64,000 nt of DNA, taken from positions 5,413 to 69,412 of the forward strand of contig QFNN01000003.1 in NCBI GenBank assembly GCA_003240855.1, read 5' to 3'. This DNA is from Sphingomonas sanxanigenens. GTDB lineage: Bacteria > Pseudomonadota > Alphaproteobacteria > Sphingomonadales > Sphingomonadaceae. Positions 948 through 38,481 of this stretch are shown in pieces (position 1 is the stretch's first letter; each line of letters begins with the position of its first letter). The position numbers were made by a program, and so were the translations under genes. The notes under the pieces were generated by a model, which was not told the origin of the DNA, made no database searches, and saw only the letters and a program-made list of their open reading frames with translations.

Positions 948-1023
<76 letters not shown>

Positions 1024-5771: not shown

Positions 5772-6818
<1,047 letters not shown>

Positions 6819-10882: not shown

Positions 10883-10895
10883 AACGCGCGCTTAT

Positions 10896-10913
10896 TGCTG
10901 CGATATTGCAGCA
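10896..10913. promoter_or_regulatory. candidate LysR operator: palindrome TGCTGC-GATATT-GCAGCA in the divergent promoter region
   Basis: Perfect 6-bp arms can be read in the sequence. The half-site TTGCAGCAGG recurs at 10977-10986, and there is an AGCAGG-N14-CCTGCT inverted repeat at 10910-10935. Confidence 0.45.
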
Positions 10914-10995
10914 GGTAAATGCGATAATGCCTGCTTGTCTGCGATTTTGGGGTTGATATGGATCGCTCAAACAGATTTGCAGCAGGAGCCTGAAG

Positions 10996-22018: not shown

Positions 22019-22088
22019 CCTGAAAGCATTTGCAGTAATGTAACACTTATGTCGCACAATCATCATCTCTATGCAAAGAAGGAGAGAG

Positions 22089-22454
22089 ATGATGATCAAG
22101 ACCGTTCTCGCCCTTGTCGGCGCCGCGTCCGTCGTCACGACGGGCGCGGCTGCGCAAACCGCCCCCAGCCAGGCGCAAACCTATGGCTTCAACGCGATCG
22201 CGCGCGGTGATCTCAATGCCGCCGAAGCGCGCCTCATCGCCCAGCGCGCCGAAGAGCCCAACGAGCCGTCGGTGCTGCTCAATCTAGCTTATATCTATGG
22301 CCGCACCGGCCGGGCTGACGAAGCCACGGTGCTTTACAATCAGATTCTCGCCAGCGACGATGTGCTGATGGTCTCCGGCAAGGGAGAGCAGATCGGGTCG
22401 CACGCGCTGGCGCGCAAGGCGATGAACCGCACGACCGGCATAGCCTCGCGCTAA
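22089..22454 (+). CDS. small secreted protein with one TPR-like motif
   Basis: Start set at MMIKTVLALVGAASVVTTGAAAQ (signal peptide), preceded by AAGGAGAGAG. There is a TPR-like stretch, LLNLAYIYGRTGRADEATVLYNQIL. Confidence 0.55.
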   Translation: MMIKTVLALVGAASVVTTGAAAQTAPSQAQTYGFNAIARGDLNAAEARLIAQRAEEPNEPSVLLNLAYIYGRTGRADEATVLYNQILASDDVLMVSGKGEQIGSHALARKAMNRTTGIASR

Positions 22455-23281
22455 TCGACGGGCGGGCTGTCCAATGTGGAAAGCTCGCCGATCGCTTTCA
22501 GGATAATCGCGAACAGGCGGTCCTCGTCGCCGGGTCCGGCAAAGCCGTGCGAAGCGGTGGGGACCGTCGTTACGCTGATCCGCGCGCGGGCGGTGGCGAA
22601 AGGTGGTTTGCGCCACTCGGCTGCGAAGGCCATCGCCGTCATGTCCCGCTCCGCGAGGATGATCTGCGCGGGCGGCGCATCGGTGAGCGCGGCAGCAAGT
22701 CGCATGACCAGTGGTTGCGCTGAGGCGGGGTGAGCCGCGCGCGACAGGCCCAGCGCCAATTTGCCAAGGTCGATCCTGCCGCGCTGCAGCGCGCGCCAAG
22801 CCGCCGGATCGCGTAGCCGCCGCGCATAATGCCGCCGGATCGCACCGGGGGGCGGCAATCCGTCGTCGTTTTCGACCGCCCAGGGATTGGAGAGGATCAG
22901 GGCGTCGAGCCGAGCATCATTATGGAAAAAAGCGAGCGCTGTCGCGGCATCGCAATTGCCGAAGCCGATCAGGCGCGAGACATGCGGGCAGGCGGCGCGG
23001 AACGCGGCTGCTGCTGCGGCGATGTCGGCCGCGCTGGCGGTAAAGCCGTCATTCTCGCCTCCGCTGTCGCCCACGCCGCGCCGGTCGAAGCGAAAGACGG
23101 GGATTCCGCGCGCCGACAGATGCGCGGCCAGGCGCGCCATCCCGGCATGCGCGCCGGCGCGGATTTCGTTCCCCCCCGATACGATCAGCAGACCTGTTCC
23201 ACCGGACGCCGTATCCAGTGTCGCGGCGCAGATTTCATCTTCACACGAAAAGTTCAGGATATAGCGCAAGATTTTGACCAA
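22451..23281 (-). CDS. alpha/beta-hydrolase-fold protein, 'hydrolase 1, exosortase A system-associated' type
   Basis: N-terminus LNFSCEDE...LLIVSGG, elbow GFGNCDAA (Cys110, nt 22952-22954) and a C-terminal ASHGF His. Gene context supports the call. The apparent start is TTG. Confidence 0.8.
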   Translation of the reverse strand: MVKILRYILNFSCEDEICAATLDTASGGTGLLIVSGGNEIRAGAHAGMARLAAHLSARGIPVFRFDRRGVGDSGGENDGFTASAADIAAAAAAFRAACPHVSRLIGFGNCDAATALAFFHNDARLDALILSNPWAVENDDGLPPPGAIRRHYARRLRDPAAWRALQRGRIDLGKLALGLSRAAHPASAQPLVMRLAAALTDAPPAQIILAERDMTAMAFAAEWRKPPFATARARISVTTVPTASHGFAGPGDEDRLFAIILKAIGELSTLDSPPVD

Positions 23282-23913
23282 TATATAATATCTTGCACGA
23301 TCCAGTTCGTCAGATCGGGATCGTCGCCAGGTTCAGCGCGTCGCCAGATAGGCGCGAAGTCGATATAGGCGTCGGCGGGTGCAGGATCATCTGCGGTGCG
23401 GATCGTCCGCGCCTTGTTCGACGCCATAGGAACCGCCGCTATCAACTCGGCATGAAGCTCGCGGCCCACCCGGTGCCCGCCGCGCAACAAATAGGGGGCA
23501 TCCGCAGCGTCGGCTTCGCCGCCGACAAGTCGCCCGCGATCAAGGTCGCGGATCAGCGCCGCTCCCGCGACAGGGGACAGCCGCCAATGCGGAATATCGC
23601 CTGCCGCGTCGTCGATCAGCGCGCCGCCCCTAAACGCGATCGTGAAAGCGGGAGCGGCTGCAGCCGCGATTGCCGCCCGCCAGTCTTTCAAGCGCGCATT
23701 GGCCAGGTCGCTCAGGCTCTCGCCGAGCCCGGCGAGTACCGGCATCCGTGTGCCGATGCCGTTCATAGCAAGCGTTCGCATCGCCTGCGCGATCACGCGG
23801 CGCATGCGGTTATGCTCATCGAATAAGGGAGGTATAACAATACCCTGAACGGGATTGTCATCGCCATATATCAATTCGAGTTCGCCGAACCCATCGGGGC
23901 CGGCGAAGCGCAT
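23254..23913 (-). CDS. alpha/beta-hydrolase-fold protein, 'hydrolase 2, exosortase A system-associated' type
   Basis: 219 aa with IVIPPLFDEHNRMRR...LAGLGES and an elbow-position AFRGGA (nt 23620-23634) that has no Ser or Cys. Its start overlaps the ACP stop (TGATG). Confidence 0.7.
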   Translation of the reverse strand: MRFAGPDGFGELELIYGDDNPVQGIVIPPLFDEHNRMRRVIAQAMRTLAMNGIGTRMPVLAGLGESLSDLANARLKDWRAAIAAAAAPAFTIAFRGGALIDDAAGDIPHWRLSPVAGAALIRDLDRGRLVGGEADAADAPYLLRGGHRVGRELHAELIAAVPMASNKARTIRTADDPAPADAYIDFAPIWRRAEPGDDPDLTNWIVQDIIYWSKSCAIS

Positions 23914-24182
23914 CAGGCGAGCACTTTGCGCGTGACGAAGGCCACCAGCGCGCCGAAGCTTTCGAGCATCTCGCCGTCCACCTCATCATCCTCGATGATG
24001 ATGCCCAACCTGTCCTCAATCTCCGTCAACAGCCCCGCGACCGCCATTGAATCAAGTTCAGGCATTGCGCCGAACAGCGGCGTTGCCGGTTCCAGCGCGG
24101 CGGCGCGCGCATCGGACAGCGCCAGCACGTCACGCAATGCGCCGCGCACTCCGGCCTCGATCCGTTCACGCTCGTCAGTCAC
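23913..24182 (-). CDS. dedicated acyl carrier protein (exosortase A-associated type)
   Basis: 89-aa acidic protein with the phosphopantetheine-attachment motif ELDSMA (Ser45, nt 24048-24050). Confidence 0.85.
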   Translation of the reverse strand: MTDERERIEAGVRGALRDVLALSDARAAALEPATPLFGAMPELDSMAVAGLLTEIEDRLGIIIEDDEVDGEMLESFGALVAFVTRKVLA

Positions 24183-24211
24183 TCATGCTCTCCGTCAATT
24201 CCACGCGCCGG

Positions 24212-25243
24212 TTAGTCGACGCGGCGTCCCCGGACAAGGGCGGAAAGCCATGCCCAGGCCGCGCGCGGCCAGGCAGTGGGGCGCGAAAGATTGAATAGAT
24301 CGACGCGCTGCAAAACCCGTTTCTCGTCCATCCAGTCAGCCTTGTAGGCATCGTCGCCCGTGCCGAAGTCGATTGTCTGAACGCCGTCCATGTCGATCGC
24401 GCGCTCGAACATGGCCGCGCTAAGCACCGTGCCGGGGGAATGTTCTCGCGCATCCTCGGCATGCGCGAGTTTGTGGATGATCGCGACGCCGTTCTCGACC
24501 GTCCAAAGCTGGGCCGCTATCGGTCGCCCGCCGAGCCGCGCCACGCCGATCCTCAGCGTGCCGGCTCCGCCTTCCTCTTCGGCGAAGTTTCGCAAAAAGG
24601 TGGGGGAGCCTTCGGCTGGTTTCCAGCTTTCGCCATAAACCTGTTCATAGGCATCCCATGCGGCGGCGTCGAAATGGTCGAAAATCTCGATGCCCAGGTC
24701 GGTGCGCTTGCGCTCGACGGTCGAGCGAAGCTGGCCGGGGCGCGCCGCCCAATATTCGCTGAAGATTCGGCCATTCACGTTCAGTCGCCAATTCGCGGTC
24801 GCCGGACGCACGATGCTGAGCCATCCCGCGCGGCGGAAGGCGCGCGCCAGCGCCTGCGCTTCTTCGTCCGGAACCGGGCTGAGCGAAATGCTGGCGATGC
24901 CGAGCGCGGGCGCGCGCAGCCGGCGCGCAATCGCGCGGAGCAGCCGGCGTTTGAGCAGCGCATCGGGCGTCGCCGAATAGACGGGGGAAAAGGCCAGCGT
25001 GTACCAGCTCGCCAGAGGAACCAGACGGTCGCGCCGTTCGCGTGCGAGGAACAGCCAGGCATCGGCGCCATCGGAGCGTGCGCGGATCATCAGCGGAGCG
25101 ATCCCCGGCGGGACAAGCGCCCATGTGCGTCGGAACCAGCCGAGCCGATCGAAAGGCGCGGGCTGAGCGTTGCGATCAAGCGTGCCGCGCGCCACCTTGG
25201 CGACGGCGTCGAGATCGTCGAAACATTCCCCCTTGACCAACAA
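24212..25243 (-). CDS. GNAT-superfamily acyltransferase, CelD/FemAB-like
   Basis: 343 aa. The C-terminal domain ...IIHKLAHAEDAREHSPGTVL...TIDFGTGDDAYKADW resembles the FemAB-like protein at 34726..35781. The apparent start is TTG. Confidence 0.75.
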   Translation of the reverse strand: MLVKGECFDDLDAVAKVARGTLDRNAQPAPFDRLGWFRRTWALVPPGIAPLMIRARSDGADAWLFLARERRDRLVPLASWYTLAFSPVYSATPDALLKRRLLRAIARRLRAPALGIASISLSPVPDEEAQALARAFRRAGWLSIVRPATANWRLNVNGRIFSEYWAARPGQLRSTVERKRTDLGIEIFDHFDAAAWDAYEQVYGESWKPAEGSPTFLRNFAEEEGGAGTLRIGVARLGGRPIAAQLWTVENGVAIIHKLAHAEDAREHSPGTVLSAAMFERAIDMDGVQTIDFGTGDDAYKADWMDEKRVLQRVDLFNLSRPTAWPRAAWAWLSALVRGRRVD

Positions 25244-25295
25244 GGCGCTATCGCTCCTCCCGACCGTCAGACGTTAAGCAGAGGATGAGGCGCGG

Positions 25296-26810
25296 GTGCA
25301 AGCCCCGGATTCCACAACAAGGGCCGAACCGAGGCCGATCGACCGCATAGCGCTGTCAGGCGCGGGCGATGCGCCGGCGCTCGCGATGCGGGATCTGGTG
25401 CTCGATTATGCAGAGCTTGAAGATCGCGTCGCCAGGCTTGCGGCATGGATACGTGCGCAGGGGGTAGCGACCGGTGATCGGGTGGCGAGCTGGCTGCCGA
25501 AAAACGTCGAGGCGTGCCTGATGCCGCTGGCGGCGGCGCGCGCAGAGGCGATCCACATCCCGATCAACCCGTTGCTCAAGCGCGCGCAGGTCGCGCATAT
25601 CCTTGCCGATAGCGGCACAAGGCTGCTGCTGACGGGCGCAGGCCGGGCCGCCACGCTCGAGCCGGGGGATTTGCCCGAAAGCTGCGCGCTGGCGATCGAT
25701 GCCGCGATCACGCCGCCGTCGGAAGGCCTGCCGCCATCCGACGCCGATCCGTCGGCGCTTGCCGCGATCCTTTATACGTCGGGGTCGACCGGCCTGCCCA
25801 AGGGCGTGATGCTCAGCCATGCCAATCTCTGGCTCGGCGCGATCTCGGTTGCGACCTATCTCAAGCTGTCGCCAGTCGATCGTGTGCTGTGCGTCCTGCC
25901 GCTGAGCTTCGACTATGGCCAGAATCAGCTTTTATCGACCTGGGCGGCGGGCGGCTGCGCTGTTCCTCTCGACTATCTGGCGCCGCGCGATGTCGTTCGC
26001 GCTGTCGAGCGCGAGGCGATCACCACGCTCGCGGGCGTGCCTCCGCTCTGGCTGCAACTTGTCGAGGTGGAATGGCCGGCGGAAACCGCGGCGCGCCTGA
26101 AGCGGCTGACCAATTCGGGGGGGGCGCTCACTCCGCCGCTGGTGCGCGCCCTGCGCGCGACTTTCCCGGCGGCCGACATTTACGCGATGTACGGGCTGAC
26201 CGAGGCGTTCAGGTCGACCTATCTTGATCCGGCGTTGATCGACGCGCACCCCGATTCCGTGGGTAACGCCATCCCCTTCGCCGAGGTTATGATCGTGCGT
26301 CCGGACGGCAGCCCGGCCGGTGCGGATGAGCCGGGAGAACTCGTCCATGCCGGGCCGCTGGTGGCGCAGGGATATTGGCGCGATCCCGAACGCACCGCGC
26401 TGCGCTTCCGCCCGGCTCCGCCTGCGTCGCATTATGGCGGTACGGCGGTGTGGTCGGGCGATACGGCGCTGCGCGGAGCGGACGGGCTGATCCGTTTCGT
26501 CGGCCGGGACGACGAGATGATCAAATCCTCGGGCAACCGCATCAGCCCTGCCGAGATCGAAAGCGCCGCCATCGCAAGCGGCGCAACGGGGGAGGCCGTT
26601 GCGATCGGGGTGAAAGACGCGCGGCTGGGGCAGGCGGTGCTCCTCGTCGCGCGCGGAGACGGCAGCGGCGAGGATGCGCTGAAGAGCTGGCTGAAACGCG
26701 AACTTCCCGCCTATATGCAGCCGCGCGAGATCGTCTGGCGTAGCGAATTGCCGCGCAATCCCAATGGCAAGCTCGATCGGGCGGGGCTGAGGAAGGAACT
26801 GGCGTCATGA
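25296..26810 (+). CDS. AMP-forming acyl-CoA/acyl-carrier ligase (exosortase A system-associated type)
   Basis: Adenylate-forming core motifs ILYTSGSTGLPKGVMLSH, YGLTEA, GD...GRDDEMIKSSG and PRNPNGKLDR. GTG start. Confidence 0.88.
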   Translation: MQAPDSTTRAEPRPIDRIALSGAGDAPALAMRDLVLDYAELEDRVARLAAWIRAQGVATGDRVASWLPKNVEACLMPLAAARAEAIHIPINPLLKRAQVAHILADSGTRLLLTGAGRAATLEPGDLPESCALAIDAAITPPSEGLPPSDADPSALAAILYTSGSTGLPKGVMLSHANLWLGAISVATYLKLSPVDRVLCVLPLSFDYGQNQLLSTWAAGGCAVPLDYLAPRDVVRAVEREAITTLAGVPPLWLQLVEVEWPAETAARLKRLTNSGGALTPPLVRALRATFPAADIYAMYGLTEAFRSTYLDPALIDAHPDSVGNAIPFAEVMIVRPDGSPAGADEPGELVHAGPLVAQGYWRDPERTALRFRPAPPASHYGGTAVWSGDTALRGADGLIRFVGRDDEMIKSSGNRISPAEIESAAIASGATGEAVAIGVKDARLGQAVLLVARGDGSGEDALKSWLKRELPAYMQPREIVWRSELPRNPNGKLDRAGLRKELAS

Positions 26811-28033
26811 AGCCGATGGGGCCGATCCCGCCCGATTTTCAACGCCAGCGGGGCATTCTCACGATTGGCGGGCAAAGCGTTGCTGCGTTGGCGGCGGAGG
26901 CGGGCGATACGCCTTTCTTCGCCTATGATCTGGGCGTCATCCGCGCGCGGGTCGCCCGGTTGCGAGCGGCGTTGCCAGCATCAGTCGCGATCCATTATGC
27001 GATCAAAGCCAATCCCTTTGCGCCGCTGGTGACGGCGATGGCCGGGCTGGTCGACGGGCTCGACGTCGCATCCGAAGGCGAACTGGCGCTGGCACTTGCA
27101 TCGGGTGGGGAGGAGATTTCCTTCGCCGGTCCCGGCAAACGGGACCGCGAGCTTGAGGCGGCGATCCTCGCAGGTGCGACGCTCAACCTTGAATCCGAAG
27201 GCGAGGCTGATCGTGCGCTGGCGATCGCCGATCGGATCGGTATTGCACCGCGCCTTGCCGTTCGCGTGAACCCCGATTTCGACCTGCGTGGTTCGGGGAT
27301 GCGGATGGGAGGCGGCGCAAAGCCCTTTGGCGTCGATGCAGAGCGCGTGCCCGCTTTGGTGAGGCGTCTGGTCGCCGCAGGCGTGGACTGGCGCGGCTTC
27401 CATATTTTCGCCGGATCGCAGGCGCTCGATCCTCAGGCGATCATCGAAACGCAGGCTGCGACCGTCGCGCTTGCCGCGCAACTGGCCGAATCCGCAGGCG
27501 CGCCGCCGCCATTGGTCAATCTCGGCGGTGGTTTCGGCGTACCCTATTTTGCGGGTGATGAGGCGCTCGATGTCGAGGCGGTTGGCCGCGCCCTTGCGGA
27601 TACGCTCGCCGCGCGCCCGGCGATCCTGGCGGACAGCCGGTTCGCAATCGAACTGGGGCGCTGGCTGGTCGCCGAAAGCGGCGTCTATGTGACGCGCATC
27701 GTTGACCGGAAAGTGAGCCATGGCGATATTTTCCTCGTCGTCGACGGCGGCCTGCATCATCAACTCGCCGCCAGCGGCAATTTCGGCACGGTCGTCCGTC
27801 GTAATTATCCCGCTGCGATCGCCACGCGCCTGGGCGAGCCGGCCGTCGAGGAAGCAAGCATCGTCGGCTGCCTTTGCACTCCTCTTGACCGATTGGCCGA
27901 CAAGGTCGCGCTCCCGCATGCCGAGGTCGGCGATCTGGTCGCGATCTTCATGGCCGGGGCCTATGGAGCCAGCGCCAGCCCCGCTGCTTTCCTTGGTCAC
28001 AAGCCTGCCGCCGAATTGCTCGTCGAGGGCTGA
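26807..28033 (+). CDS. PLP-dependent decarboxylase, Orn/DAP/Arg decarboxylase fold (exosortase A system-associated type)
   Basis: PLP-Lys motif HYAIKANP, GGGFGVPY, and a C-terminal CTPLD motif. It has an ATGA overlap with the ligase gene. Confidence 0.88.
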   Translation: MKPMGPIPPDFQRQRGILTIGGQSVAALAAEAGDTPFFAYDLGVIRARVARLRAALPASVAIHYAIKANPFAPLVTAMAGLVDGLDVASEGELALALASGGEEISFAGPGKRDRELEAAILAGATLNLESEGEADRALAIADRIGIAPRLAVRVNPDFDLRGSGMRMGGGAKPFGVDAERVPALVRRLVAAGVDWRGFHIFAGSQALDPQAIIETQAATVALAAQLAESAGAPPPLVNLGGGFGVPYFAGDEALDVEAVGRALADTLAARPAILADSRFAIELGRWLVAESGVYVTRIVDRKVSHGDIFLVVDGGLHHQLAASGNFGTVVRRNYPAAIATRLGEPAVEEASIVGCLCTPLDRLADKVALPHAEVGDLVAIFMAGAYGASASPAAFLGHKPAAELLVEG

Positions 28034-28106: not shown

Positions 28107-28763
28107 GTGATGACGATGCGTTTCCGTGTGCCTCTTCCCTCCATCCCGGTCGCGATCGCGCTGCTGCCTTTCGCTGCGTCGGCGTTGGCCGAGACCAAGG
28201 ATGCGCCCAGGTTACCCACCGCCAATTTCGTCGCGGTCGAGGACAAGCCCTCGGAAACCTACGTCATCGGTCCGCTCGATACGCTGACGATATTCGTCTG
28301 GCGCAATCCCGAACTGGGCGGCAAGGTCCAGGTCCGCCCTGATGGCCGCATCACCACGCCGCTGATCGAGGATATGCAGGCGGTCGGCAAGACGCCCAAA
28401 CAGCTTTCCGACGATCTGGCGGAGGCGCTTTCCAAATATATCACCACCCCACGCGTCTCGGTGATCGTCGAGAATTTTTCGGGCACCTTCTCGCAGCAGA
28501 TCCGCATCGTCGGCGCGACCGACAAGCCCGCCGCCATCCCCTATCGCGCGAACATGACCTTGCTCGACGCCATGATCGCGGTGGGCGGCCTTTCCGAATA
28601 TGCGGCGGGCAACCGCGCGCGCCTGATCCGATATGATCGCGCATCGGGCAAACAGATCGAGTTTCGTCTGAAGATCACCAGTCTGCTCCGCAAGGGCGAC
28701 ATCAAGGCCAATGTCGGGCTTGAACCGGGCGATGTCATCATCATCCCCGAAAGCCTGTTCTGA
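28107..28763 (+). CDS. polysaccharide export outer-membrane protein (Wza-like, PEP-CTERM locus type)
   Basis: Signal peptide, a Poly_export motif (PLDTLTIFVWRNPEL...VRPDGRITTPLI) and an SLBB-like C-terminus. The start is ambiguous (GTG 28107, ATG 28110 or ATG 28116). Confidence 0.88.
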   Translation: MMTMRFRVPLPSIPVAIALLPFAASALAETKDAPRLPTANFVAVEDKPSETYVIGPLDTLTIFVWRNPELGGKVQVRPDGRITTPLIEDMQAVGKTPKQLSDDLAEALSKYITTPRVSVIVENFSGTFSQQIRIVGATDKPAAIPYRANMTLLDAMIAVGGLSEYAAGNRARLIRYDRASGKQIEFRLKITSLLRKGDIKANVGLEPGDVIIIPESLF

Positions 28764-28767
28764 GCCG

Positions 28768-30324
28768 ATGGGCGCGCTCTATGACGAACTGCTGATTGCG
28801 CTCCATCTGGTGTGGCGACGGCGCTGGATCGCGCTTGGCGTGGCATGGGCCATCTGCCTCGCGGGCTGGCTGGTCGTGGCGCTCATCCCGAATCGCTATG
28901 AGAGCCGCGCGCGCCTCTCGATCCAGGCGCAATCGCTGCTTGGAGGCAGCGTCGGCATAGACGACGCCCGCCGCCAGCGCGATCTAGACCAGATCCGCCA
29001 GACGCTCGTTTCGACGGTCAACCTGCAGAAGGTGGTCAAGTCGACCGACCTCAATCTGACGGTCGCCAGCGACCGCGACGTGGCGTCGCGCGTCGAAAGC
29101 CTGCGTCAGGCGATCAGCATCGTCGCCCAGCAGGATAATCTGGTCGAGATCAGCGCGCGCTGGGGTGCTCCGGGGCTTTCCGACTCCGTCAATGCGAAGC
29201 TGGCGCGCGCCATCGTCCAGCGCCTCGCCGATCTCTTCATCGAGCAGAATCTGGCTGACGGGCGGGAAGAAAGCAGCCGCACGCTCGCTTTCCTCGACGC
29301 CCAACTCGCCGAACGGTCGAAGCAACTGAGCGAGGCCGACGCCAAGCGCGCCACGTTCGAGGCGCAATATCTCGGCGCACTGCCCGGGACCGGTTCGGTC
29401 GCAGATCGCCTCGACGCAGCGCGGGCCGAGCTTTCGCGCATTGACTCAGATCTGGCGGCGGCAGGAAGCGCGCTGGTTGCCGTCAACGCGCAGATGGCGG
29501 GCACATCGCCAACGGTCGCGGGGGCAGGGAGCGCAGCGGCCCCCGCCACGGCAGGCCCGGCGCGCGCACGCGTCGCCGCGCTCGAAAGCCAGATCGCGGA
29601 GGGCCGGTCGCGCGGCTGGACCGATCAGCACCCTGACATGGTCGCGCTCAGCGTCCAGCTTGCGCAGGCGCGCGCGGCTGCGGGTGGCGAGCGGCTTGTC
29701 ACAGCCGCTGCCGGCGGCGCAGCGAGCGCCAATCCGCTCTATCTGTCGCTGCGTTCGATGCAGGCAGACCGGCAGGCGGCGGTCGCCGCGCTGTCGGCGC
29801 GCAAGGCGCAGATCCGGCATGACATCGACCAGTATCTTGAGCGGACATCGGCCGACCCCGCAGTGGCGGCCGAAGCTGGGCGCGTCAGCCAGGACTATGC
29901 CGTGCTCAAGGATCAATATGACAAGTTGCTCGCCGAGCGCGAGCAGGCGGCGTTGCGCGGACAAGCCGAGACCAAGGCCGGCCCCGTCCGCATCGCCCTG
30001 ATCGACCCGCCGAGCGCGCCGCGCCTGCCTGCGGCGCCCAACCGTCCGCTGCTGCTGACGGCGGTGCTGCTGCTCGGTGTCGCGGGTGGCGTCGGCGCGG
30101 CCTATGCGCTTGGCCGGATCAGGACGACCTATCCCACGGCGCGCCGGCTGGAACGCGCCAGTGGCCTGACTGTCATCGGGGCGATTGGCGAGGCGCAGAC
30201 CGAGGCCCGCCGTGCGATCGCCGCGAAGCAACGTCGCTGGCTGATGGGCGGCGGCGCCGCGCTTGCGGGCGCCTGGGCGCTGCTGCTCGTCATCGAGCTT
30301 GTCCAGCGTGGCATGGTGGCATGA
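28768..30324 (+). CDS. chain-length determinant (Wzz/PCP-type) protein, PEP-CTERM locus type
   Basis: N- and C-terminal TM helices flank a long coiled-coil periplasmic region, with a Wzz-like N-terminal motif. Start set at MGALYDEL. Confidence 0.85.
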   Translation: MGALYDELLIALHLVWRRRWIALGVAWAICLAGWLVVALIPNRYESRARLSIQAQSLLGGSVGIDDARRQRDLDQIRQTLVSTVNLQKVVKSTDLNLTVASDRDVASRVESLRQAISIVAQQDNLVEISARWGAPGLSDSVNAKLARAIVQRLADLFIEQNLADGREESSRTLAFLDAQLAERSKQLSEADAKRATFEAQYLGALPGTGSVADRLDAARAELSRIDSDLAAAGSALVAVNAQMAGTSPTVAGAGSAAAPATAGPARARVAALESQIAEGRSRGWTDQHPDMVALSVQLAQARAAAGGERLVTAAAGGAASANPLYLSLRSMQADRQAAVAALSARKAQIRHDIDQYLERTSADPAVAAEAGRVSQDYAVLKDQYDKLLAEREQAALRGQAETKAGPVRIALIDPPSAPRLPAAPNRPLLLTAVLLLGVAGGVGAAYALGRIRTTYPTARRLERASGLTVIGAIGEAQTEARRAIAAKQRRWLMGGGAALAGAWALLLVIELVQRGMVA

Positions 30325-30331
30325 GGCGTCG

Positions 30332-31186
30332 ATGACCGAACATGGCCCCATTCGCACTGGATCGCTGATCGAGCGCGCAGCCGAAATCTACGATTTCGCA
30401 AGCTTCCGGCAAGCGGTGAAGCCTGCGCCAGACGCGACGGCTGATCGACCGCAGCCCCACATCGCATCGGCCGGCGTCCAGGCCATTGATCGTGACCTTT
30501 TGCGCATGTCGGGATTTATCGTCCCCGGAGAGGCCGTCAGCCCGATCGCCGAGGAGTTTCGCATCGCCAAGCGCCAGTTGCTGATCGGCGGCATGGCGTC
30601 GGCCAGGGATCGCGTGATCCTGATCGGATCGGCGCGCAAGGGCGAGGGCAAGAGCTTCTGCGCGGTCAACCTCGCGCTCTCGCTTGCCTCTGAGCGCGAC
30701 CTCGAAGTGCTGCTCGTCGATGGCGATGTCGCCAAACCTTCGATATTTTCGATGCTTGGCGTCGCAGGTGGACCCGGGTTGATGGACGCGCTTGCAGACC
30801 CCGGCATCGCGATCGACGATTGCATCGTCGAGACGGATATAGCGGGCCTGTCTCTGCTCCCCGCAGGTCGCGCGACCCATAACGATACAGAACTGCTCGC
30901 CTCGGCCCGCACCGCGTCGCTGATTGCAGCGCTTGCCGAAAAGAACCTGCGCCGCCTCGTCATTCTCGATTCGCCGCCGCTGCTTGACGCTTCCCCAGCC
31001 TCGGCGCTCGCCCTTCACGCCGGTCAGGCGTTGCTGGTTGTCCGCGCTGATGTGACGAGCGAGGCGGACCTGCGGGCCGCCGTTGCGATGCTTGATCCGT
31101 GCGGGGAGGTGAAGCTGCTGCTGAATGGCGTCAGCCGCATGGTCTCCGGGCAGCGCTTTGGCGATTATTATGGCGAAGTACCGTGA
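30332..31186 (+). CDS. BY-kinase-like P-loop ATPase (chain-length determinant tyrosine kinase, PEP-CTERM locus type)
   Basis: Walker A ARKGEGKS, Walker A' LLVDGDVAKP, Walker B LVILDSPP. The short C-terminal tail GDYYGEVP has only two Tyr. Confidence 0.85.
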   Translation: MTEHGPIRTGSLIERAAEIYDFASFRQAVKPAPDATADRPQPHIASAGVQAIDRDLLRMSGFIVPGEAVSPIAEEFRIAKRQLLIGGMASARDRVILIGSARKGEGKSFCAVNLALSLASERDLEVLLVDGDVAKPSIFSMLGVAGGPGLMDALADPGIAIDDCIVETDIAGLSLLPAGRATHNDTELLASARTASLIAALAEKNLRRLVILDSPPLLDASPASALALHAGQALLVVRADVTSEADLRAAVAMLDPCGEVKLLLNGVSRMVSGQRFGDYYGEVP

Positions 31187-32787
31187 TCCGGCGCCTGCTC
31201 TTGATCGCTGCGACGCTGCTCGCCGTGCCGGGGATGGCCGGTGTGGCCGAGGCGCGTTCGAATGCGCAGATCACGCCTTATATTGAAGTCGATCAGGTCG
31301 TTCTCGCCGACCTCAAGGGGGCGGGCGACGTCCTGACCTACACCACATTGGCGGCCGGCGTCGACGCCAGCATCGCCGGGCGCAATGCGGAAGGGCAGGT
31401 GAGCTATCGCTATGAGCATCGGTTCGGCTGGGGGCGACGCGCGGGCGACGAAGGTGTGCATTATGGCCTCGCGCGCGGGCGGCTGACCGTTACCGACGGG
31501 TTCAGCCTTGAAGCGGGCGGAATCGCGACACGCGCGCGCAGCGATATTCGCGGGGCCGCAAACGGCTATGGCGATCTCAATCCGGACAATGTCTCGAATG
31601 TCTATGCGTTATATGCGGGCCCCGCTTTCGCGAGGCGCATAGGCGATCTCGATGCCGCGGCCGCCTATCGCATCGGTTACACCAAAGTCGATCCTGCCGA
31701 CATCATCCTGCCTGCAGGTCAGCCCCGTCTCGATCAATATGATCATTCGCTCAGCCATTATGCGACCGCCAGCATCGGCATACCCGCGCGCATTTTTCCG
31801 CTGTTCGGCTGGAAGCTGTCGGGTCTGTGGCAGCGTGAGGCGACCGGACAGCTAGACCAGCGTTTCGACGATAAGGCGGTGAGACTCGATCTCACCCGCC
31901 CCCTCGGCCGCACGCTCGCGCTGGTCGGCTCGGCGGGATATGAAAAGATCACGATAAGCCAGCGCCCGGCCCTGCGCGATGCAAATGGCGCTCCGGCGTT
32001 CGACGCCAAGGGGCGTTTCGCGACCGATAAGAGCGCGGCGCGGCAACTCGCTTATGAAACTGACGGACTGATCTGGGACGCCGGCCTGTCCTGGCGGCCC
32101 AGTCAACGGACTATGGCAGAGTTCCGCGTCGGCAGGCGTTATGGATCAACTATTTATACTGGCTCTCTCACGCACGAAGTTAAGCCGGGCGTGGCCGTGC
32201 AGGTGACTGCCTATGATGGCCTCCAGAGTTTTGGTCGGCAACTGACGGATGGGCTGGTCGGCCTGCCCACGCAATTCGCGACATTCAGCAATCCGCTCGC
32301 CCGGACGATGGGCGGCTGCATCTATGGCGCGAAGGCGGCAGGAACCTGCCTCGATGACGCCTTCCAGTCGATCGCGACAGCCCAATATCGCGCTCGGGGC
32401 GTAACGGCGCTGCTATCGGTCAATCGCGGCCCGTGGAGCGGGGGTGTCGGCATCGGCTATGCCCGCCGCAAATATCTAGCGCCCGAGGATGGCCTCTTCT
32501 TTTCGCTCGACGGCGTCGTCGACCAAAGCTGGTTCGGACAGGCTCAGATCGGCCGCAGGTTGAGCGAGCGATCGAGCGTTGAAGCGAGCCTTTACGCCAA
32601 TCGCTACGAAAGCGGCATCGCCTTCGCGCCCGCCGTGACCTCGACGGGAACGACGGTCAGCTATTATCGCCTTATCGGTCGTCGGCTGAGCGCCACGGCG
32701 TCGATCGGGTTGTTCACTTCGGATCAGGACGGCTTCGCCAATGATGTGGTAGCATCGGGACTGATCGGCCTGCGGTATAGTTTCTAG
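31183..32787 (+). CDS. predicted outer-membrane beta-barrel protein, PEP-CTERM system-associated (uncharacterised family)
   Basis: Signal peptide (LLLIAATLLAVPGMAGVAEA), alternating beta-strand pattern and a C-terminal ...GLRYSF. GTGA overlap with the kinase gene. Confidence 0.75.
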   Translation: MIRRLLLIAATLLAVPGMAGVAEARSNAQITPYIEVDQVVLADLKGAGDVLTYTTLAAGVDASIAGRNAEGQVSYRYEHRFGWGRRAGDEGVHYGLARGRLTVTDGFSLEAGGIATRARSDIRGAANGYGDLNPDNVSNVYALYAGPAFARRIGDLDAAAAYRIGYTKVDPADIILPAGQPRLDQYDHSLSHYATASIGIPARIFPLFGWKLSGLWQREATGQLDQRFDDKAVRLDLTRPLGRTLALVGSAGYEKITISQRPALRDANGAPAFDAKGRFATDKSAARQLAYETDGLIWDAGLSWRPSQRTMAEFRVGRRYGSTIYTGSLTHEVKPGVAVQVTAYDGLQSFGRQLTDGLVGLPTQFATFSNPLARTMGGCIYGAKAAGTCLDDAFQSIATAQYRARGVTALLSVNRGPWSGGVGIGYARRKYLAPEDGLFFSLDGVVDQSWFGQAQIGRRLSERSSVEASLYANRYESGIAFAPAVTSTGTTVSYYRLIGRRLSATASIGLFTSDQDGFANDVVASGLIGLRYSF

Positions 32788-32799
32788 GGGGTTAGCAAG

Positions 32800-33861
32800 G
32801 TGTATAACAGCTTTTACGGCCTGACTGATCGGCCCTTTCAGCTCACCCCGGATCCGCGCTTCTATTTCGAGAGCGCGACGCACCGGAAGGCGATGGCCTA
32901 TCTCGGCTATGGTCTCGCGCAGGGCGAGGGCTTCATCGTCATCACCGGGGAGATCGGATCAGGCAAGACGACGCTGACCGGTCACCTAATGCAGACCGTT
33001 GATCCCGCGCGGCTGACGGCGGCGCGGATTACGACGACCCAGGTCGACGGCGACGATATGCTTCGCCTCACCGCCCAAGGGTTTGGAATCGACATTGATG
33101 GCGCAGATAAAGCGACCATTATCAGGAGATTGGATGATTTTCTTGCGGAACAATCTCGGATCGGTAAACGCAGCCTGCTGATCGTCGATGAAGCGCAGAA
33201 TCTTCCGGTCGAGACGCTCGAAGAGCTGCGCATGCTCTCAAATCTCCAGGCGCACGGTCATGCGCTGCTCCAGATCTTCCTGCTCGGCCAGCCCGAGTTT
33301 CGCGATCGCCTGGCCGGGCTTGAGCAGCTTCGCCAGCGCGTCATTGCAACGCATCACCTCGAACCGATGCTGGCCGAGGAGGTTGAGCCTTACGTGGTGC
33401 ATCGGCTGAGTCTTGCGGGCTGGACGGGAAATCCTGAGTTCACCCCTGACGCCTTCGTGGCCGTCTACCGCTTCAGCGGAGGCATACCGCGCCAGATCAA
33501 CGCGCTGGTCTCGCGCGTGCTGCTGCTTGGCGCGATCGAGAAGCTCGCGCTGATCGACGGCGCGACCGTGGACCGTGTCATCGCCGATTTTGAGCATGAC
33601 GCGACGGCGCCGGTCACGGCGGTTTACGCCGCCGTGACGGAAGCGCCGAATGTTGTCGTGGAGCATGAGCCCGTCGCTGCCGCCGTCATGCCGTCGATTG
33701 TTCCCGACTCTGCACTCGTCGCGCGGGTCGAGGCGCTTGAGGCTCAGGTCGCGGCGCAGGACGCCGTCATACGCCGCGTGCTCGCGCTGCTCCTCGACTG
33801 GGTCGAGACCGAGCAATATCCGCCGATTCCGACTGGCCTTATGCGCGACAGCGCGGCCTGA
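32800..33861 (+). CDS. AAA/ExeA-like ATPase, XrtA/PEP-CTERM system-associated
   Basis: Walker A GEIGSGKTT and Walker B LLIVDEAQNL. Conserved position in XrtA loci. GTG start. Confidence 0.85.
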   Translation: MYNSFYGLTDRPFQLTPDPRFYFESATHRKAMAYLGYGLAQGEGFIVITGEIGSGKTTLTGHLMQTVDPARLTAARITTTQVDGDDMLRLTAQGFGIDIDGADKATIIRRLDDFLAEQSRIGKRSLLIVDEAQNLPVETLEELRMLSNLQAHGHALLQIFLLGQPEFRDRLAGLEQLRQRVIATHHLEPMLAEEVEPYVVHRLSLAGWTGNPEFTPDAFVAVYRFSGGIPRQINALVSRVLLLGAIEKLALIDGATVDRVIADFEHDATAPVTAVYAAVTEAPNVVVEHEPVAAAVMPSIVPDSALVARVEALEAQVAAQDAVIRRVLALLLDWVETEQYPPIPTGLMRDSAA

Positions 33862-33877
33862 CGCCGTTTGAGGGGGC

Positions 33878-38470: not shown

Positions 38471-38481
38471 GCGGCCCCACC

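What the first reader, a model, noticed from the sequence alone, without database searches (positions are those of the whole stretch)
22451..28033. Six-gene ACP / AMP-ligase / PLP-decarboxylase / GNAT / twin-hydrolase cassette attached to the exosortase A locus: a conserved pathway with no known product
**Seen in sequence.** Two divergent, tightly coupled transcription units share a 52-bp control region (25244-25295).
- Leftward unit: a CelD/FemAB-like GNAT (24212-25243), an 89-aa carrier protein with LDSM Ser45 (23913-24182), hydrolase 2 (23254-23913, start overlapping the ACP stop as TGATG) and hydrolase 1 (22451-23281).
- Rightward unit: an adenylate-forming ligase with YTSGSTGLPKGV (25296-26810) and an Orn/DAP-fold PLP decarboxylase with AIKANP (26807-28033), joined by an ATGA overlap.

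**Established knowledge.** As I recall, these families carry 'exosortase A system-associated' names in TIGRFAMs/NCBIfam (ligase, decarboxylase, hydrolase 1, hydrolase 2). The names rest purely on co-occurrence with XrtA. I know of no assigned substrate, product or phenotype.

**Inference.** The parts list fits a small carrier-protein-based pathway. The ligase would load a carboxylate or amino acid onto the dedicated ACP. The decarboxylase would create a primary amine. The GNAT would transfer the unit and the hydrolase pair would release or edit it. A primary-amine-bearing, possibly acylated molecule is what a sortase-like transpeptidase needs as an acceptor nucleophile. The cassette could therefore make the still-unknown acceptor or anchor for XrtA-processed PEP-CTERM proteins. 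Alternatively it could make an aminoacyl/amide decoration of the EPS.
Basis: partly seen in the sequence, partly recalled or inferred. Interest (0 to 1): 0.85.

Follow-up and report, generated by a model that had tools for sequence, protein, structure and literature searches.

The report
Carrier-protein amino-acid module beside exosortase locus
Next to a sphingomonad's exosortase/exopolysaccharide genes sits a small carrier-protein pathway that most likely turns aspartate or glutamate into a carrier-bound beta-alanine or GABA unit for decorating a surface sugar polymer, which gives a concrete, testable chemistry to gene families so far named only by their neighbours.

Summary
All six genes are at the stated coordinates, with the stated motifs and overlaps. 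They adjoin a canonical XrtA/PEP-CTERM locus (28107-40419) in an ~18-kb block bounded by housekeeping genes. The core is a trio, not six genes. The PLP decarboxylase is far closer to BtrK, which decarboxylates glutamyl-S-carrier protein (242 bits), than to DAP decarboxylases (~123-133). The "acyl-CoA ligase" is an NRPS-type adenylation enzyme with the amino-binding Asp invariant. The ACP's Asp-Ser site is invariant. Relatives occur as ligase-decarboxylase and decarboxylase-carrier fusions. This matches the published Btr/Cta/Vin/Flv logic: Asp or Glu loaded by its side-chain carboxyl, then decarboxylated on the carrier to beta-alanyl- or GABA-S-ACP. Hydrolase 1 is a Cys-His-Asp alpha/beta-hydrolase, plausibly a transacylase. 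Hydrolase 2 lacks a triad (Arg at the nucleophile position) and fails its HMM cut-off here. The GNAT has a FemX-like aminoacyl-transferase fold but is absent from about half of related loci. The trio persists under purifying selection where the hydrolases and XrtA locus are absent, and lies in polysaccharide loci in actinomycetes. Glycan aminoacylation is therefore better supported than a dedicated XrtA acceptor. No experimental literature was found.

The parts
25296..26810 (+). Adenylation enzyme (annotated 'acyl-CoA ligase, exosortase A system-associated', TIGR03098). Proposed amino acid:ACP ligase of the VinN/FlvN type.
   Evidence: TIGR03098 615.9 bits, above the 592.35 cut-off. The best solved relatives are NRPS A-domains and stand-alone aminoacyl-ACP ligases. 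The A4 'FD' Asp206 and Arg306 are invariant in 73/73 homologues. Asp206 aligns with the A4 Asp of LgrA.
26807..28033 (+). PLP-dependent alanine-racemase-fold decarboxylase (TIGR03099). Proposed aminoacyl-S-ACP alpha-decarboxylase of the BtrK/CtaF/VinO/FlvO type. Translationally coupled to the ligase by an ATGA overlap.
   Evidence: TIGR03099 578.4 bits. Best PDB hit is BtrK at 242 bits, against 133 for the next and ~123 for LysA. Relatives are fused to the AMP-ligase or to a PP-binding domain.
23913..24182 (-). Stand-alone 89-aa carrier protein (ACP/PCP) with the phosphopantetheine site at Ser45.
   Evidence: Pfam PP-binding 24.4 bits, above the 20.8 cut-off. The PELDSMAVA motif with D44-S45 is invariant in 69/69 homologues. 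It lies next to the ligase in nearly all related loci.
24212..25243 (-). Tandem-GNAT, FemX-like putative aminoacyl transferase (Pfam Acetyltransf_6). An accessory component.
   Evidence: PF13480 77.5 bits. AF2 model pLDDT 91.4. Foldseek top hits are FemX, Sba18/Sbb17 and MprF/aaPGS, E 3e-14 and TM 0.61-0.64 for FemX. Missing from 17 XrtA-linked loci.
22451..23281 (-). Hydrolase 1 (TIGR03100): an alpha/beta-hydrolase with a Cys110-Asp213-His245 triad. Proposed thioester-forming transacylase or editing thioesterase.
   Evidence: TIGR03100 213.2 bits. The G-[NL]-C-[DE]-[AG]-A elbow is present in 49/49 sequences. C110, D213 and H245 are invariant. The AF2 model (pLDDT 87.6) puts C110 at the strand-turn-helix elbow. 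The fold is a generic alpha/beta-hydrolase.
23254..23913 (-). Diverged 'hydrolase 2': the positional counterpart of TIGR03101, lacking a catalytic triad. Probably a non-catalytic partner of hydrolase 1.
   Evidence: Only 31.6 bits against the 202.75 cut-off. Arg95 sits at the nucleophile-equivalent position in 45/46 sequences, including canonical Thauera-type members, and no conserved Ser/Cys/His is found. The start overlaps the ACP stop, and the 3' end overlaps the hydrolase 1 start.
25244..25295 (.). 52-bp divergent spacer between the GNAT and ligase starts. It holds both ribosome-binding sites.
   Evidence: Sequence. No sigma-70-like hit. The spacer is ~3-65 bp in relatives, and only an SD-like motif recurs.
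22071..22454 (+). Small secreted TPR-like protein (127 aa) converging on hydrolase 1. Membership is uncertain.
   Evidence: ORF with a signal-peptide-like N-terminus. No NCBIfam hit. TPR proteins also flank the hydrolases in Thauera and Aquabacterium, but no sequence similarity to this one was detected.
28107..34729 (+). First half of the XrtA/PEP-CTERM EPS locus: export protein, chain-length determinant, Tyr autokinase, conserved unknown (31099-32787), ATPase, and polysaccharide deacetylase.
   Evidence: TIGR03027, TIGR03007, TIGR03018 (below cut-off), TIGR03015 and TIGR03006.
34678..35781 (+). FemAB-family XrtA-system protein (TIGR03019), in the same Pfam family as the cassette GNAT. Candidate universal user of the aminoacyl-ACP.
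   Evidence: TIGR03019 340.7 bits. PF13480 63 bits. Weak colinear similarity to the cassette GNAT, E 0.13. Present in all 31 XrtA-ATPase-anchored loci.
35556..40419 (+). Second half of the XrtA locus: stp1 glycosyltransferase, XrtA-EpsI fusion (36968-38470), and AsnB-like amidotransferase.
   Evidence: TIGR03087, TIGR03109 + TIGR02914, and TIGR03108.

Best explanation
The core of the finding is a three-gene thiotemplated module, with variable accessory enzymes around it.

1. The adenylation enzyme (25296-26810) activates an acidic amino acid through its side-chain carboxyl. L-Asp is slightly favoured over L-Glu. It loads the amino acid as a thioester on the phosphopantetheine arm of the 89-aa carrier protein (Ser45).
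2. The BtrK-like PLP decarboxylase (26807-28033) removes the alpha-carboxyl while the amino acid is tethered. The product is beta-alanyl-S-ACP or gamma-aminobutyryl-S-ACP, an activated acyl donor with a free primary amine.
3. The unit is then transferred to an acceptor by aminoacyl transferases of the FemX/Acetyltransf_6 type. These are the XrtA locus's own TIGR03019 protein and, in this lineage, the extra cassette GNAT. The Cys-His-Asp hydrolase 1 and its triad-less partner hydrolase 2 act either as a thioester-forming transacylase or as an editing/release thioesterase.
4. The most likely acceptor is a sugar of the exopolysaccharide made by the adjacent locus, for example an amine exposed by the locus's polysaccharide deacetylase. 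That would give an amino-acylated, amine-bearing EPS.

Basis for each step:
- Steps 1-2 rest on strong homology and gene fusions.
- Step 3 is inferred from folds and catalytic residues.
- Step 4 is inferred from gene neighbourhoods only.
For: Decarboxylase:
- BtrK (L-glutamyl-[BtrI ACP] decarboxylase) is by far the best solved relative: 242 bits against 133 and ~123.
- The literature states that BtrK, CtaF, FlvO and VinO act on ACP-tethered Glu/Asp loaded through the side-chain carboxyl.

Ligase:
- It resembles NRPS A-domains and stand-alone (beta-)aminoacyl-ACP ligases, not fatty acyl-CoA ligases.
- It scores 254 bits on the amino-acid-adenylation model.
- The A4 Asp206 is invariant, as is an Arg in the pocket loop, in 73/73 homologues.

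Carrier:
- The D44-S45 site is invariant in 69/69 homologues.

Coupling:
- An ATGA overlap joins ligase and decarboxylase.
- Ligase-decarboxylase adjacency is near-universal.
- Natural ligase-decarboxylase fusions are preceded by a coupled carrier gene.
- A decarboxylase-carrier fusion lies next to an ATP-grasp ligase.

Transferases:
- The GNAT model matches FemX, Sba18/Sbb17 and MprF.
- TIGR03019 shares its Pfam family.
- Hydrolase 1 has an invariant Cys-Asp-His triad at canonical positions. This echoes the Cys-His-Asp thiotemplated transacylases BtrH and CtaG that act downstream in the characterised systems.

Glycan link:
- 37 of 59 decarboxylase-anchored loci have the hydrolase pair and the trio beside an XrtA EPS locus, and four more have the trio there without one or both hydrolases. 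26 of 31 ATPase-anchored XrtA loci have the trio directly upstream.
- In Aquabacterium, UDP-glucose dehydrogenase and an epimerase are inserted between ligase and decarboxylase.
- The Actinoplanes trio sits with a Wzx flippase and sugar-nucleotide enzymes.
Against: - No biochemical or genetic data exist for any of these proteins in the searched literature.
- The substrate (Asp, Glu or another amino acid) is not determined. The Arg306 register is uncertain because of a 2-residue gap in the alignment.
- The preference for Asp rests only on chemical reasoning: there is no second protecting ligase, and a GABA thioester would lactamise.
- The trio also occurs with none of the proposed transferases or EPS genes within 10 kb. 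It is still under purifying selection there, so it must be able to feed something else.
- The hydrolase pair and the GNAT are each dispensable in some XrtA-linked loci (L084), so their roles cannot be essential to the core chemistry.
- The FemX family uses aminoacyl-tRNA, not aminoacyl-ACP. Use of an ACP donor by this fold is assumed, not shown.
Confidence: 0.55

Rival explanations
1. The cassette builds the still-unknown primary-amine acceptor (on EPS, lipid or glycan) onto which exosortase A transfers cleaved PEP-CTERM proteins. This would be analogous to FemXAB building the pentaglycine acceptor for sortase A.
For: - The predicted product carries a free primary amine.
- Two FemX-fold/Acetyltransf_6 transferases are in the block.
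- Adjacency with XrtA loci is strong in both directions.
- Exosortase is suspected, but not shown, to be a transpeptidase, and no acceptor is known.
Against: - The trio is retained intact, with dN/dS 0.14-0.25, at the same trxB-truA site where the XrtA locus and hydrolases are gone. This happened in at least 3 independent lineages.
- Family members above the HMM cut-offs occur in Gram-positive actinomycete polysaccharide loci.
- 4 of 31 XrtA loci lack the trio upstream.
- No PEP-CTERM substrates are encoded in the window.
- Whole-genome presence or absence of XrtA could not be checked.
Confidence: 0.15
2. The annotation taken at face value. An ordinary acyl-CoA (fatty or organic acid) ligase plus a free-amino-acid decarboxylase (DAP/ornithine-like) make an amine and an acyl donor. 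The GNAT joins them into an N-acyl amine or lipid, in the spirit of the exosortase-linked N-acyl amino acid synthases.
For: - NCBIfam names the ligase 'acyl-CoA ligase', and it also hits fatty-acyl-CoA ligase models at lower scores.
- A genetic link between N-acyl amino acid synthases and PEP-CTERM/exosortase systems is reported (Craig et al. 2011, as cited in PMC4897644).
Against: - The ligase is closest to amino-acid-activating A-domains and keeps the amino-binding Asp in all 73 homologues.
- The decarboxylase is ~110 bits closer to the ACP-dependent BtrK than to any free-substrate decarboxylase.
- A dedicated carrier protein is always adjacent, and is sometimes fused.
- The GNAT fold matches aminoacyl transferases rather than FeeM-type N-acyl synthases, and it is often absent.
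Confidence: 0.08
3. The trio is a stand-alone supplier of free beta-alanine or GABA, or of a small diffusible thiotemplated product such as an oligo-beta-alanine. It happens to be parked at a conserved chromosomal site next to which the XrtA island is inserted. The association would be positional rather than functional.
For: - Orphan trios lie between trxB and truA and are under purifying selection.
- A relative is fused to pantoate-beta-alanine ligase.
- CtaD/CtaF iterate to oligo-beta-alanine in closthioamide biosynthesis.
- A ligase-decarboxylase fusion with a carrier gene sits in a non-EPS context.
Against: - The linkage to XrtA-type loci recurs outside sphingomonads (L067, L073, L145, L155). 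XrtA-family genes such as the AsnB-like protein and a TPR protein flank the Thauera locus.
- Polysaccharide genes are interleaved with the trio or adjacent to it in Aquabacterium and Actinoplanes.
- The PanC fusion is on a single 2x-coverage contig.
- An ATP-consuming carrier route to free beta-alanine would be wasteful.
Confidence: 0.12

Closest known systems
Vicenistatin/fluvirucin starter-unit module: VinN/FlvN (adenylation enzyme), VinL/FlvL (stand-alone ACP), VinO/FlvO (PLP decarboxylase), plus VinK and VinJ
   Same: - The same three-part logic with the same enzyme classes: an AMP-forming A-domain-type ligase, a stand-alone ACP and an alanine-racemase-fold PLP decarboxylase.
- Asp or 3-methyl-Asp is loaded through the side-chain carboxyl and decarboxylated only after thioester formation.
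- An alpha/beta-hydrolase (VinJ) also belongs to that pathway.
- Entries 3wvn/3wv4, which I recall to be VinN, are among the ligase's better PDB hits.
   Different: - There is no PKS, no second protecting adenylation enzyme (VinM) and no VinK-type acyltransferase.
- The context is an exopolysaccharide/exosortase locus in Gram-negative bacteria, not a macrolactam gene cluster.
- The alpha/beta-hydrolase here has a Cys nucleophile and a triad-less partner.
Butirosin AHBA side-chain pathway (BtrI/BtrJ/BtrK/BtrH/BtrG) and closthioamide CtaD/CtaE/CtaF/CtaG ('non-canonical thiotemplated' pathways)
   Same: - BtrK is the closest solved homologue of the decarboxylase.
- The carrier is of similar size (87 against 89 aa).
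- In butirosin the decarboxylated unit is transferred to an amine on a sugar (ribostamycin).
- The downstream transacylases use Cys-His-Asp triads with thioester intermediates.
   Different: - The loaders there are ATP-grasp enzymes (BtrJ, CtaD), not AMP-forming ligases.
- The transacylases there are papain-like, whereas here the Cys-His-Asp triad sits on an alpha/beta-hydrolase scaffold.
- No hydroxylase, gamma-glutamyl cyclotransferase or thioamide synthetase is present.
TIGRFAMs/NCBIfam 'exosortase A system-associated' families TIGR03098-TIGR03101
   Same: - The ligase, decarboxylase and hydrolase 1 pass the curated cut-offs and sit beside XrtA as the family names state.
- The families are 'hypoth_equivalog' models with no assigned function.
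   Different: - Hydrolase 2 here fails its cut-off.
- The names over-reach. Orphan sphingomonad and actinomycete members pass the same cut-offs with no XrtA locus nearby.
- 'Acyl-CoA ligase' is probably a misnomer.
FemXAB aminoacyl transferases feeding sortase A; MprF/aaPGS
   Same: - The cassette GNAT has the tandem-GNAT FemX fold.
- These enzymes transfer an activated aminoacyl group to an amine or hydroxyl of a cell-envelope precursor, and FemXAB thereby creates the sortase acceptor amine.
   Different: - Fem and MprF enzymes use aminoacyl-tRNA donors, whereas an ACP thioester donor is proposed here.
- Sequence-level membership is in Pfam Acetyltransf_6 (CelD/BcsL-like), not the FemAB family.
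- The acceptor is unknown.
Carrier-protein-mediated aminoacylation of surface polymers: DltA/DltC D-alanylation of teichoic acids and AlmE/AlmF/AlmG glycine addition to Vibrio lipid A (recalled from memory)
   Same: - A stand-alone AMP-forming ligase loads an amino acid on a small dedicated carrier protein for transfer to a cell-surface glycopolymer or lipid.
- DltA is among the ligase's PDB hits.
   Different: - Those systems have no on-carrier decarboxylation step.
- Their transferases are of different families (MBOAT DltB, lipid A acyltransferase AlmG).

Membership tests
TIGR03098 (ligase, exosortase A system-associated) | Score at or above the curated cut-off | tested here: met
   615.9 bits against 592.35.
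TIGR03098 (ligase, exosortase A system-associated) | Lies next to a TIGR03099 decarboxylase, in an XrtA context | tested here: met
   ATGA-coupled to the decarboxylase. The XrtA locus starts 74 bp downstream.
TIGR03099 (PLP decarboxylase, exosortase A system-associated) | Score at or above the curated cut-off, with the PLP-lysine motif | tested here: met
   578.4 bits against 478.45. AIKANP Lys67 is nearly invariant in alignment A2.
TIGR03100 (hydrolase 1) | Score at or above the cut-off, with an alpha/beta-hydrolase fold | tested here: met
   213.2 bits against 168.45. The AF2 and Foldseek results give an alpha/beta-hydrolase fold.
Serine alpha/beta-hydrolase (classical Ser-His-Asp) | Ser at the nucleophile elbow (G-x-S-x-G) | tested here: not met
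   Hydrolase 1 has an invariant Cys110 there. Hydrolase 2 has Arg95 at the equivalent position and no triad.
TIGR03101 (hydrolase 2) | Score at or above the curated cut-off | tested here: not met
   31.6 bits against 202.75, and only residues 25-87 match. The Thauera counterpart scores 256.
TIGR03101 (hydrolase 2) | Positional equivalence (between hydrolase 1 and the ACP) and a shared sequence signature | tested here: met
   Same position in 37+ loci. The L/F-R-[AGS]-G motif is shared with canonical members.
Phosphopantetheine carrier protein (PF00550) | Pfam gathering score and a conserved Asp-Ser attachment site | tested here: met
   24.4 bits against 20.8. D44-S45 is present in 69/69 homologues.
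Phosphopantetheine carrier protein (PF00550) | Actually phosphopantetheinylated | not testable with these tools
   Needs MS of the protein. No PPTase gene is present in the block.
BtrK/CtaF/VinO/FlvO-type aminoacyl-S-carrier decarboxylases | Closer to a characterised carrier-dependent member than to free-substrate decarboxylases | tested here: met
   BtrK 242 bits, against 133 for 6knh and <=123 for DAP decarboxylases. The LCTP[LE]D motif is shared with BtrK.
BtrK/CtaF/VinO/FlvO-type aminoacyl-S-carrier decarboxylases | Encoded with a stand-alone carrier and a carboxylate-activating ligase | tested here: met
   Fusions in relatives.
BtrK/CtaF/VinO/FlvO-type aminoacyl-S-carrier decarboxylases | Decarboxylates only the carrier-tethered amino acid | not testable with these tools
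   Requires in vitro reconstitution.
VinN/FlvN-type amino acid:ACP adenylation enzymes | A-domain core motifs with the amino-group-binding Asp in A4 | tested here: met
   YTSGSTGLPKG, FD(206), YGLTE and NPNGK are present. D206 is found in 73/73 homologues and aligns with the LgrA A4 Asp.
VinN/FlvN-type amino acid:ACP adenylation enzymes | A pocket residue that recognises the substrate's free alpha-carboxylate | tested here: inconclusive
   Arg306 is invariant, but its register relative to PheA 330/331 is ambiguous. VinN residues could not be retrieved.
FemABX aminoacyl transferases | Tandem-GNAT FemX fold | tested here: met
   Foldseek FemX E 3.5e-14, TM 0.61-0.64.
FemABX aminoacyl transferases | Sequence membership in the FemAB family, and an aminoacyl-tRNA donor | tested here: not met
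   Only Pfam Acetyltransf_6 is hit. There is no FemAB Pfam, NCBIfam or PDB sequence hit. The donor is not testable.

The most novel reading that the evidence does not exclude
The trio plus the Fem-like transferases install a beta-alanyl (or GABA, possibly oligomeric) 'stem' with a free amine on the exopolysaccharide or a lipid-linked precursor. That amine would be the nucleophile onto which exosortase A transfers PEP-CTERM proteins. This would be a Gram-negative counterpart of the FemXAB/sortase A system that uses a carrier-protein donor instead of tRNA. In lineages that lost XrtA, the same decoration would persist on another glycan.
Probability: 0.15. Interest if true: 0.9.

Novelty: new variant of a known kind. 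Interest (0 to 1): 0.6.

Why it matters
The four 'exosortase A system-associated' families are annotated in thousands of genomes with names that rest only on co-occurrence, and one of them ('acyl-CoA ligase') is probably wrong.

Recognising the ligase-ACP-decarboxylase trio as a Btr/Cta/Vin-type thiotemplated module turns an unknown into a precise, cheap experiment. Load holo-ACP with Asp or Glu and look for a -44 Da shift.

The model also predicts a specific chemical signature, beta-alanine or GABA amide-linked in the EPS of floc-forming and biofilm bacteria. It would extend 'non-canonical thiotemplated' chemistry from antibiotics to cell-surface glycan decoration. It also offers a candidate for the unknown attachment chemistry of PEP-CTERM proteins, although the comparative data here argue that this is not the module's only role.

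Tried and rejected
- **Literature (look-ups).** No paper in the library reports function, mutants or chemistry for these families. The two most relevant papers (Craig 2011, PMC3187218; VinN structure, PMC4223343) are not held.
- **Sequence search of the GNAT and hydrolase 2 against the PDB.** Nothing was found. Hydrolase 1 gave only marginal hits, and one alignment misplaced the nucleophile by two residues. The family alignment and the model corrected this.
- **hhalign of the hydrolase 1 and hydrolase 2 families.** Only residues 46-94 aligned with 39-85. The Cys110/Arg95 equivalence therefore rests on motif register and is not proven.
- **Promoter/operator search in the 52-bp spacer.** Nothing was found beyond RBS-like motifs.
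- **Small unannotated ORFs before the ligase in non-sphingomonad loci.** No families and no mutual similarity were found.
- **Decarboxylase-PanC fusion as a clue to beta-alanine.** It sits on a single 2x-coverage contig, and the neighbouring 89-aa ORF is unrelated to the ACP. The clue is too weak to use.
- **Idea that the orphan trios are a separate paralogue.** Rejected by the tree and the shared flanks.
- **Idea that the hydrolase pair strictly co-varies with the XrtA locus.** Rejected by L084, L015, L068 and L037.
- **GC3-based gene calling.** It preferred antisense ORFs at 23293-23826 and 26981-28000. These are high-GC shadow ORFs.
- **PEP-CTERM tail scan.** It found no substrates in the window.

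Full report
**1. The observation.**

Junctions:
- The ACP stop and hydrolase 2 start share base 23913 (TGATG).
- Hydrolase 1 overlaps the end of hydrolase 2 by 28 nt.
- The ligase stop and decarboxylase start form ATGA.
- The GNAT and ligase starts are separated by 52 bp.

Family assignments:

| Protein | Model | Bits | Cut-off |
|---|---|---|---|
| Ligase | TIGR03098 | 615.9 | 592.35 |
| Decarboxylase | TIGR03099 | 578.4 | 478.45 |
| Hydrolase 1 | TIGR03100 | 213.2 | 168.45 |
| ACP | Pfam PP-binding | 24.4 | 20.8 |
| GNAT | Pfam Acetyltransf_6 | 77.5 | 22 |
| Hydrolase 2 | TIGR03101 | 31.6 | 202.75 |

The GNAT has no NCBIfam model. Hydrolase 2 matches TIGR03101 over residues 25-87 only.

Immediately downstream (28107-40419, + strand) lies a canonical XrtA/PEP-CTERM locus. 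It encodes:
- the export protein, chain-length determinant and Tyr kinase;
- a conserved unknown protein;
- the ATPase, polysaccharide deacetylase and FemAB-family protein;
- the stp1 glycosyltransferase, an XrtA-EpsI fusion and an AsnB-like amidotransferase.

The ~18-kb block is bounded by RNase R on the left and truA, fmt, recR and def on the right. The organism is a sphingomonad.

**2. What the core is.**

The decarboxylase's best solved relative is BtrK, the L-glutamyl-[BtrI acyl-carrier-protein] decarboxylase of butirosin biosynthesis (242 bits, E 1e-70). The next hit scores 133 bits and true DAP decarboxylases about 123 or less.

The ligase is closest to NRPS adenylation domains and to stand-alone aminoacyl- or beta-aminoacyl-ACP ligases, including DltA and entries I recall as VinN. 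It also scores 254 bits on the amino-acid-adenylation model.
- In 73 homologues the A4 'FD' aspartate (Asp206) is invariant. This is the residue that binds the substrate amino group in A-domains.
- Arg306, in the pocket loop after the A5 YGLTE motif, is also invariant.
- Alignment to LgrA confirms Asp206, but leaves the exact register of Arg306 ambiguous because of a 2-residue gap.

The carrier's PELDSMAVA motif is invariant in 69 of 69 homologues.

Close relatives of the decarboxylase occur as natural fusions:
- ligase-decarboxylase fusions, preceded by a translationally coupled carrier gene;
- a decarboxylase-carrier fusion next to an ATP-grasp ligase.

This matches a published rule. Asp or Glu is activated (BtrJ, CtaD, FlvN, VinN) and ligated through its side-chain carboxyl to a small carrier (BtrI, CtaE, FlvL, VinL). 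Only then is it alpha-decarboxylated by a PLP enzyme (BtrK, CtaF, FlvO, VinO), giving GABA- or beta-alanyl-S-carrier. I therefore read the ligase-ACP-decarboxylase trio as such a module. By enzyme class it is of the VinN/FlvN (AMP-forming) sub-type.

**3. The accessory enzymes.**

- **GNAT.** A confident model (pLDDT 91.4) is a tandem-GNAT fold. Its top structural matches are all aminoacyl transferases: FemX (E 3.5e-14, TM 0.61-0.64), Sba18/Sbb17 and MprF/aaPGS. The XrtA locus's own FemAB-family protein (TIGR03019) belongs to the same Pfam family, PF13480, and is only distantly related to the GNAT.
- **Hydrolase 1.** It is not a serine hydrolase. All 49 homologues have G-[NL]-C-[DE]-[AG]-A at the elbow. 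Cys110, Asp213 and His245 are invariant. The model (pLDDT 87.6) puts them at the canonical nucleophile, acid and base positions. The fold is otherwise generic.
- **Hydrolase 2.** It has a conserved Arg at the nucleophile-equivalent position in 45 of 46 sequences, including canonical Thauera-type members. It has no conserved Ser, Cys or His. It is probably a non-catalytic partner. The equivalence rests on motif register, because hhalign aligned only the preceding segment.
- **Parallel with known systems.** In the characterised Btr and Cta systems, the enzymes that take the unit off the carrier (BtrH, CtaG) are Cys-His-Asp transacylases that form thioester intermediates. Hydrolase 1 could be a convergent equivalent, or alternatively an editing thioesterase.

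**4. Comparative genomics.**

*Decarboxylase-anchored loci.* 80 loci came from one-genome-per-species contigs, of which 59 were assessable.

| Loci | Content |
|---|---|
| 20 | All six genes + XrtA locus |
| 17 | No GNAT, + XrtA locus (one clade) |
| 12 | ACP-ligase-decarboxylase only, no XrtA genes within 10 kb |
| 10 | Other combinations, including trio + GNAT + XrtA without hydrolases, and trio + XrtA alone |

*The orphan trios.*
- They are interleaved with XrtA-linked loci in the decarboxylase tree.
- They occupy the same chromosomal site. trxB normally lies outside hydrolase 1, but in the orphans it abuts the ACP. truA normally lies beyond the XrtA locus, but in the orphans it follows the decarboxylase.
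- Their dN/dS (0.14-0.25 for ligase and decarboxylase) equals that of an XrtA-linked pair (0.17-0.27). dS is near saturation, so these values are rough.
- They, and an Actinoplanes pair, pass the 'exosortase A system-associated' cut-offs.

*Links to glycan synthesis.*
- The Actinoplanes trio lies with a Wzx-type flippase, an epimerase/dehydratase and a GFO/IDH/MocA oxidoreductase.
- In Aquabacterium, UDP-glucose dehydrogenase and an epimerase are inserted between ligase and decarboxylase.
- In Thauera, canonical hydrolases 1 and 2, the ACP, the ligase and the decarboxylase are followed by an AsnB-like protein.

*The reverse test.* I anchored on the XrtA-system ATPase in metagenome contigs.
- 26 of 31 XrtA loci have the ligase and decarboxylase directly upstream of the export gene.
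- 4 complete XrtA loci do not.
- L084 has the trio and the XrtA locus but no hydrolases.

*Conclusion.* The association with XrtA-type EPS loci is strong but not obligate in either direction. The trio is the conserved unit, and the common denominator of its neighbourhoods is polysaccharide biosynthesis.

**5. Mechanism and rivals.**

Best explanation (confidence 0.55):
1. Asp or Glu is loaded by its side chain on the ACP.
2. It is decarboxylated on the carrier to beta-alanyl- or GABA-S-ACP.
3. The unit is transferred by Fem-like transferases and/or the Cys-hydrolase to a sugar of the EPS. Plausibly this is an amine freed by the locus's deacetylase.

Steps 1-2 rest on homology and fusions. Step 3 is inferred from folds, catalytic residues and gene context.

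I slightly favour Asp to beta-alanine. A GABA thioester lactamises readily and, in butirosin, needs a protecting step for which no enzyme is present here. This is chemical reasoning only.

Rivals:
- **A dedicated XrtA acceptor (0.15).** Attractive by analogy with FemXAB and sortase. Exosortase is only suspected to be a transpeptidase, with no known acceptor. The orphan and actinomycete trios weaken this reading.
- **The face-value acyl-CoA/free-amine reading (0.08).** Contradicted.
- **A stand-alone beta-alanine/GABA or small-molecule role with merely positional linkage (0.12).** Supported, but contradicted by the recurrence of glycan genes around the trio.

**6. Novelty.**

The gene families and their co-occurrence with XrtA are already catalogued (the NCBIfam names). 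I found no functional literature.

What is new here:
- The trio is identified as a known kind of thiotemplated module in a new setting, surface-glycan and exosortase loci rather than antibiotic clusters.
- Hydrolase 1 has a Cys-His-Asp triad, and hydrolase 2 appears to be a pseudo-enzyme.
- The GNAT has a FemX-like fold.
- The hydrolase pair and the GNAT are accessory, while the trio outlives the XrtA locus.

I rate this a new variant of a known kind, with interest 0.6. The result is a concrete, testable hypothesis for widely distributed families of unknown function, with a minority chance of bearing on the exosortase acceptor problem.

Noticed in passing
window 31099-32787 (+): A 562-aa protein in the middle of the XrtA locus has no NCBIfam or Pfam hit. 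It is conserved in position in essentially all XrtA-linked loci examined, at 23-52% identity.
   Followed up: partly
window 36968-38470 (+): XrtA is fused to an EpsI-family C-terminal domain in one 500-aa protein (TIGR03109 at residues 22-280, TIGR02914 at 332-489). It also scores 207 bits on the XrtW model, below that model's cut-off.
   Followed up: no
window 30263-31186 (+): The XrtA-associated tyrosine autokinase scores 195.8 bits, below its 230.65 cut-off. Like hydrolase 2, the sphingomonad versions of some XrtA-system proteins are diverged from the models, which were probably built largely on Betaproteobacteria.
   Followed up: no
L072 (Actinoplanes subglobosus) 8370-11489; also L079 (Micromonospora) and L069 (Amycolatopsis): Gram-positive actinomycetes carry ligase/decarboxylase(/ACP) genes that score higher on the 'exosortase A system-associated' models than the window's own (776 and 589 bits). 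In the tree they nest among beta/gamma-proteobacterial sequences, which suggests horizontal transfer. The L072 neighbourhood is a polysaccharide locus.
   Followed up: partly
L075 (Aquabacterium MAG) 5743-11212: UDP-glucose dehydrogenase and an NAD-dependent epimerase are inserted between the ligase and the decarboxylase.
   Followed up: no
P0379, P0383, P0376, P0353 (relatives of the decarboxylase): Other natural fusions of BtrK-like decarboxylases occur: with sulfotransferase domains (two cases), with a 2OG-Fe(II) oxygenase fragment, and with pantoate-beta-alanine ligase. The last is on a single 2x-coverage contig.
   Followed up: partly
window 23293-23826 (+) and 26981-28000 (-): Long antisense 'shadow' ORFs with GC3 as high as the real genes overlap hydrolase 2 and the decarboxylase. 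A naive GC3-based caller picked them. Hydrolase 2 has the weakest coding signal of the six (GC3 0.67).
   Followed up: yes
L080 3423-4097 (-), L075 4608-5300 (-); window 22071-22454 (+): A TPR protein (42% identical between Thauera and Aquabacterium) flanks the hydrolase/ACP side of the cassette. The window has an unrelated small secreted TPR-like ORF in the analogous position.
   Followed up: partly
L080 10019-11830 (+): In Thauera the decarboxylase is followed by an AsnB-like protein that matches the XrtA amidotransferase model only from profile position 109 onward. It therefore apparently lacks the N-terminal glutaminase part. It may correspond to the 'asnH' named in floc-formation studies.
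   Followed up: no
L161 5882-10366: One metagenome locus has the ACP-ligase-decarboxylase trio directly next to an XrtA-type ATPase homologue, but none of the other XrtA-locus genes.
   Followed up: no
window 948-1023 (-): The only tRNA gene in the window is tRNA-Lys(CTT). It is unrelated to the finding.
   Followed up: no
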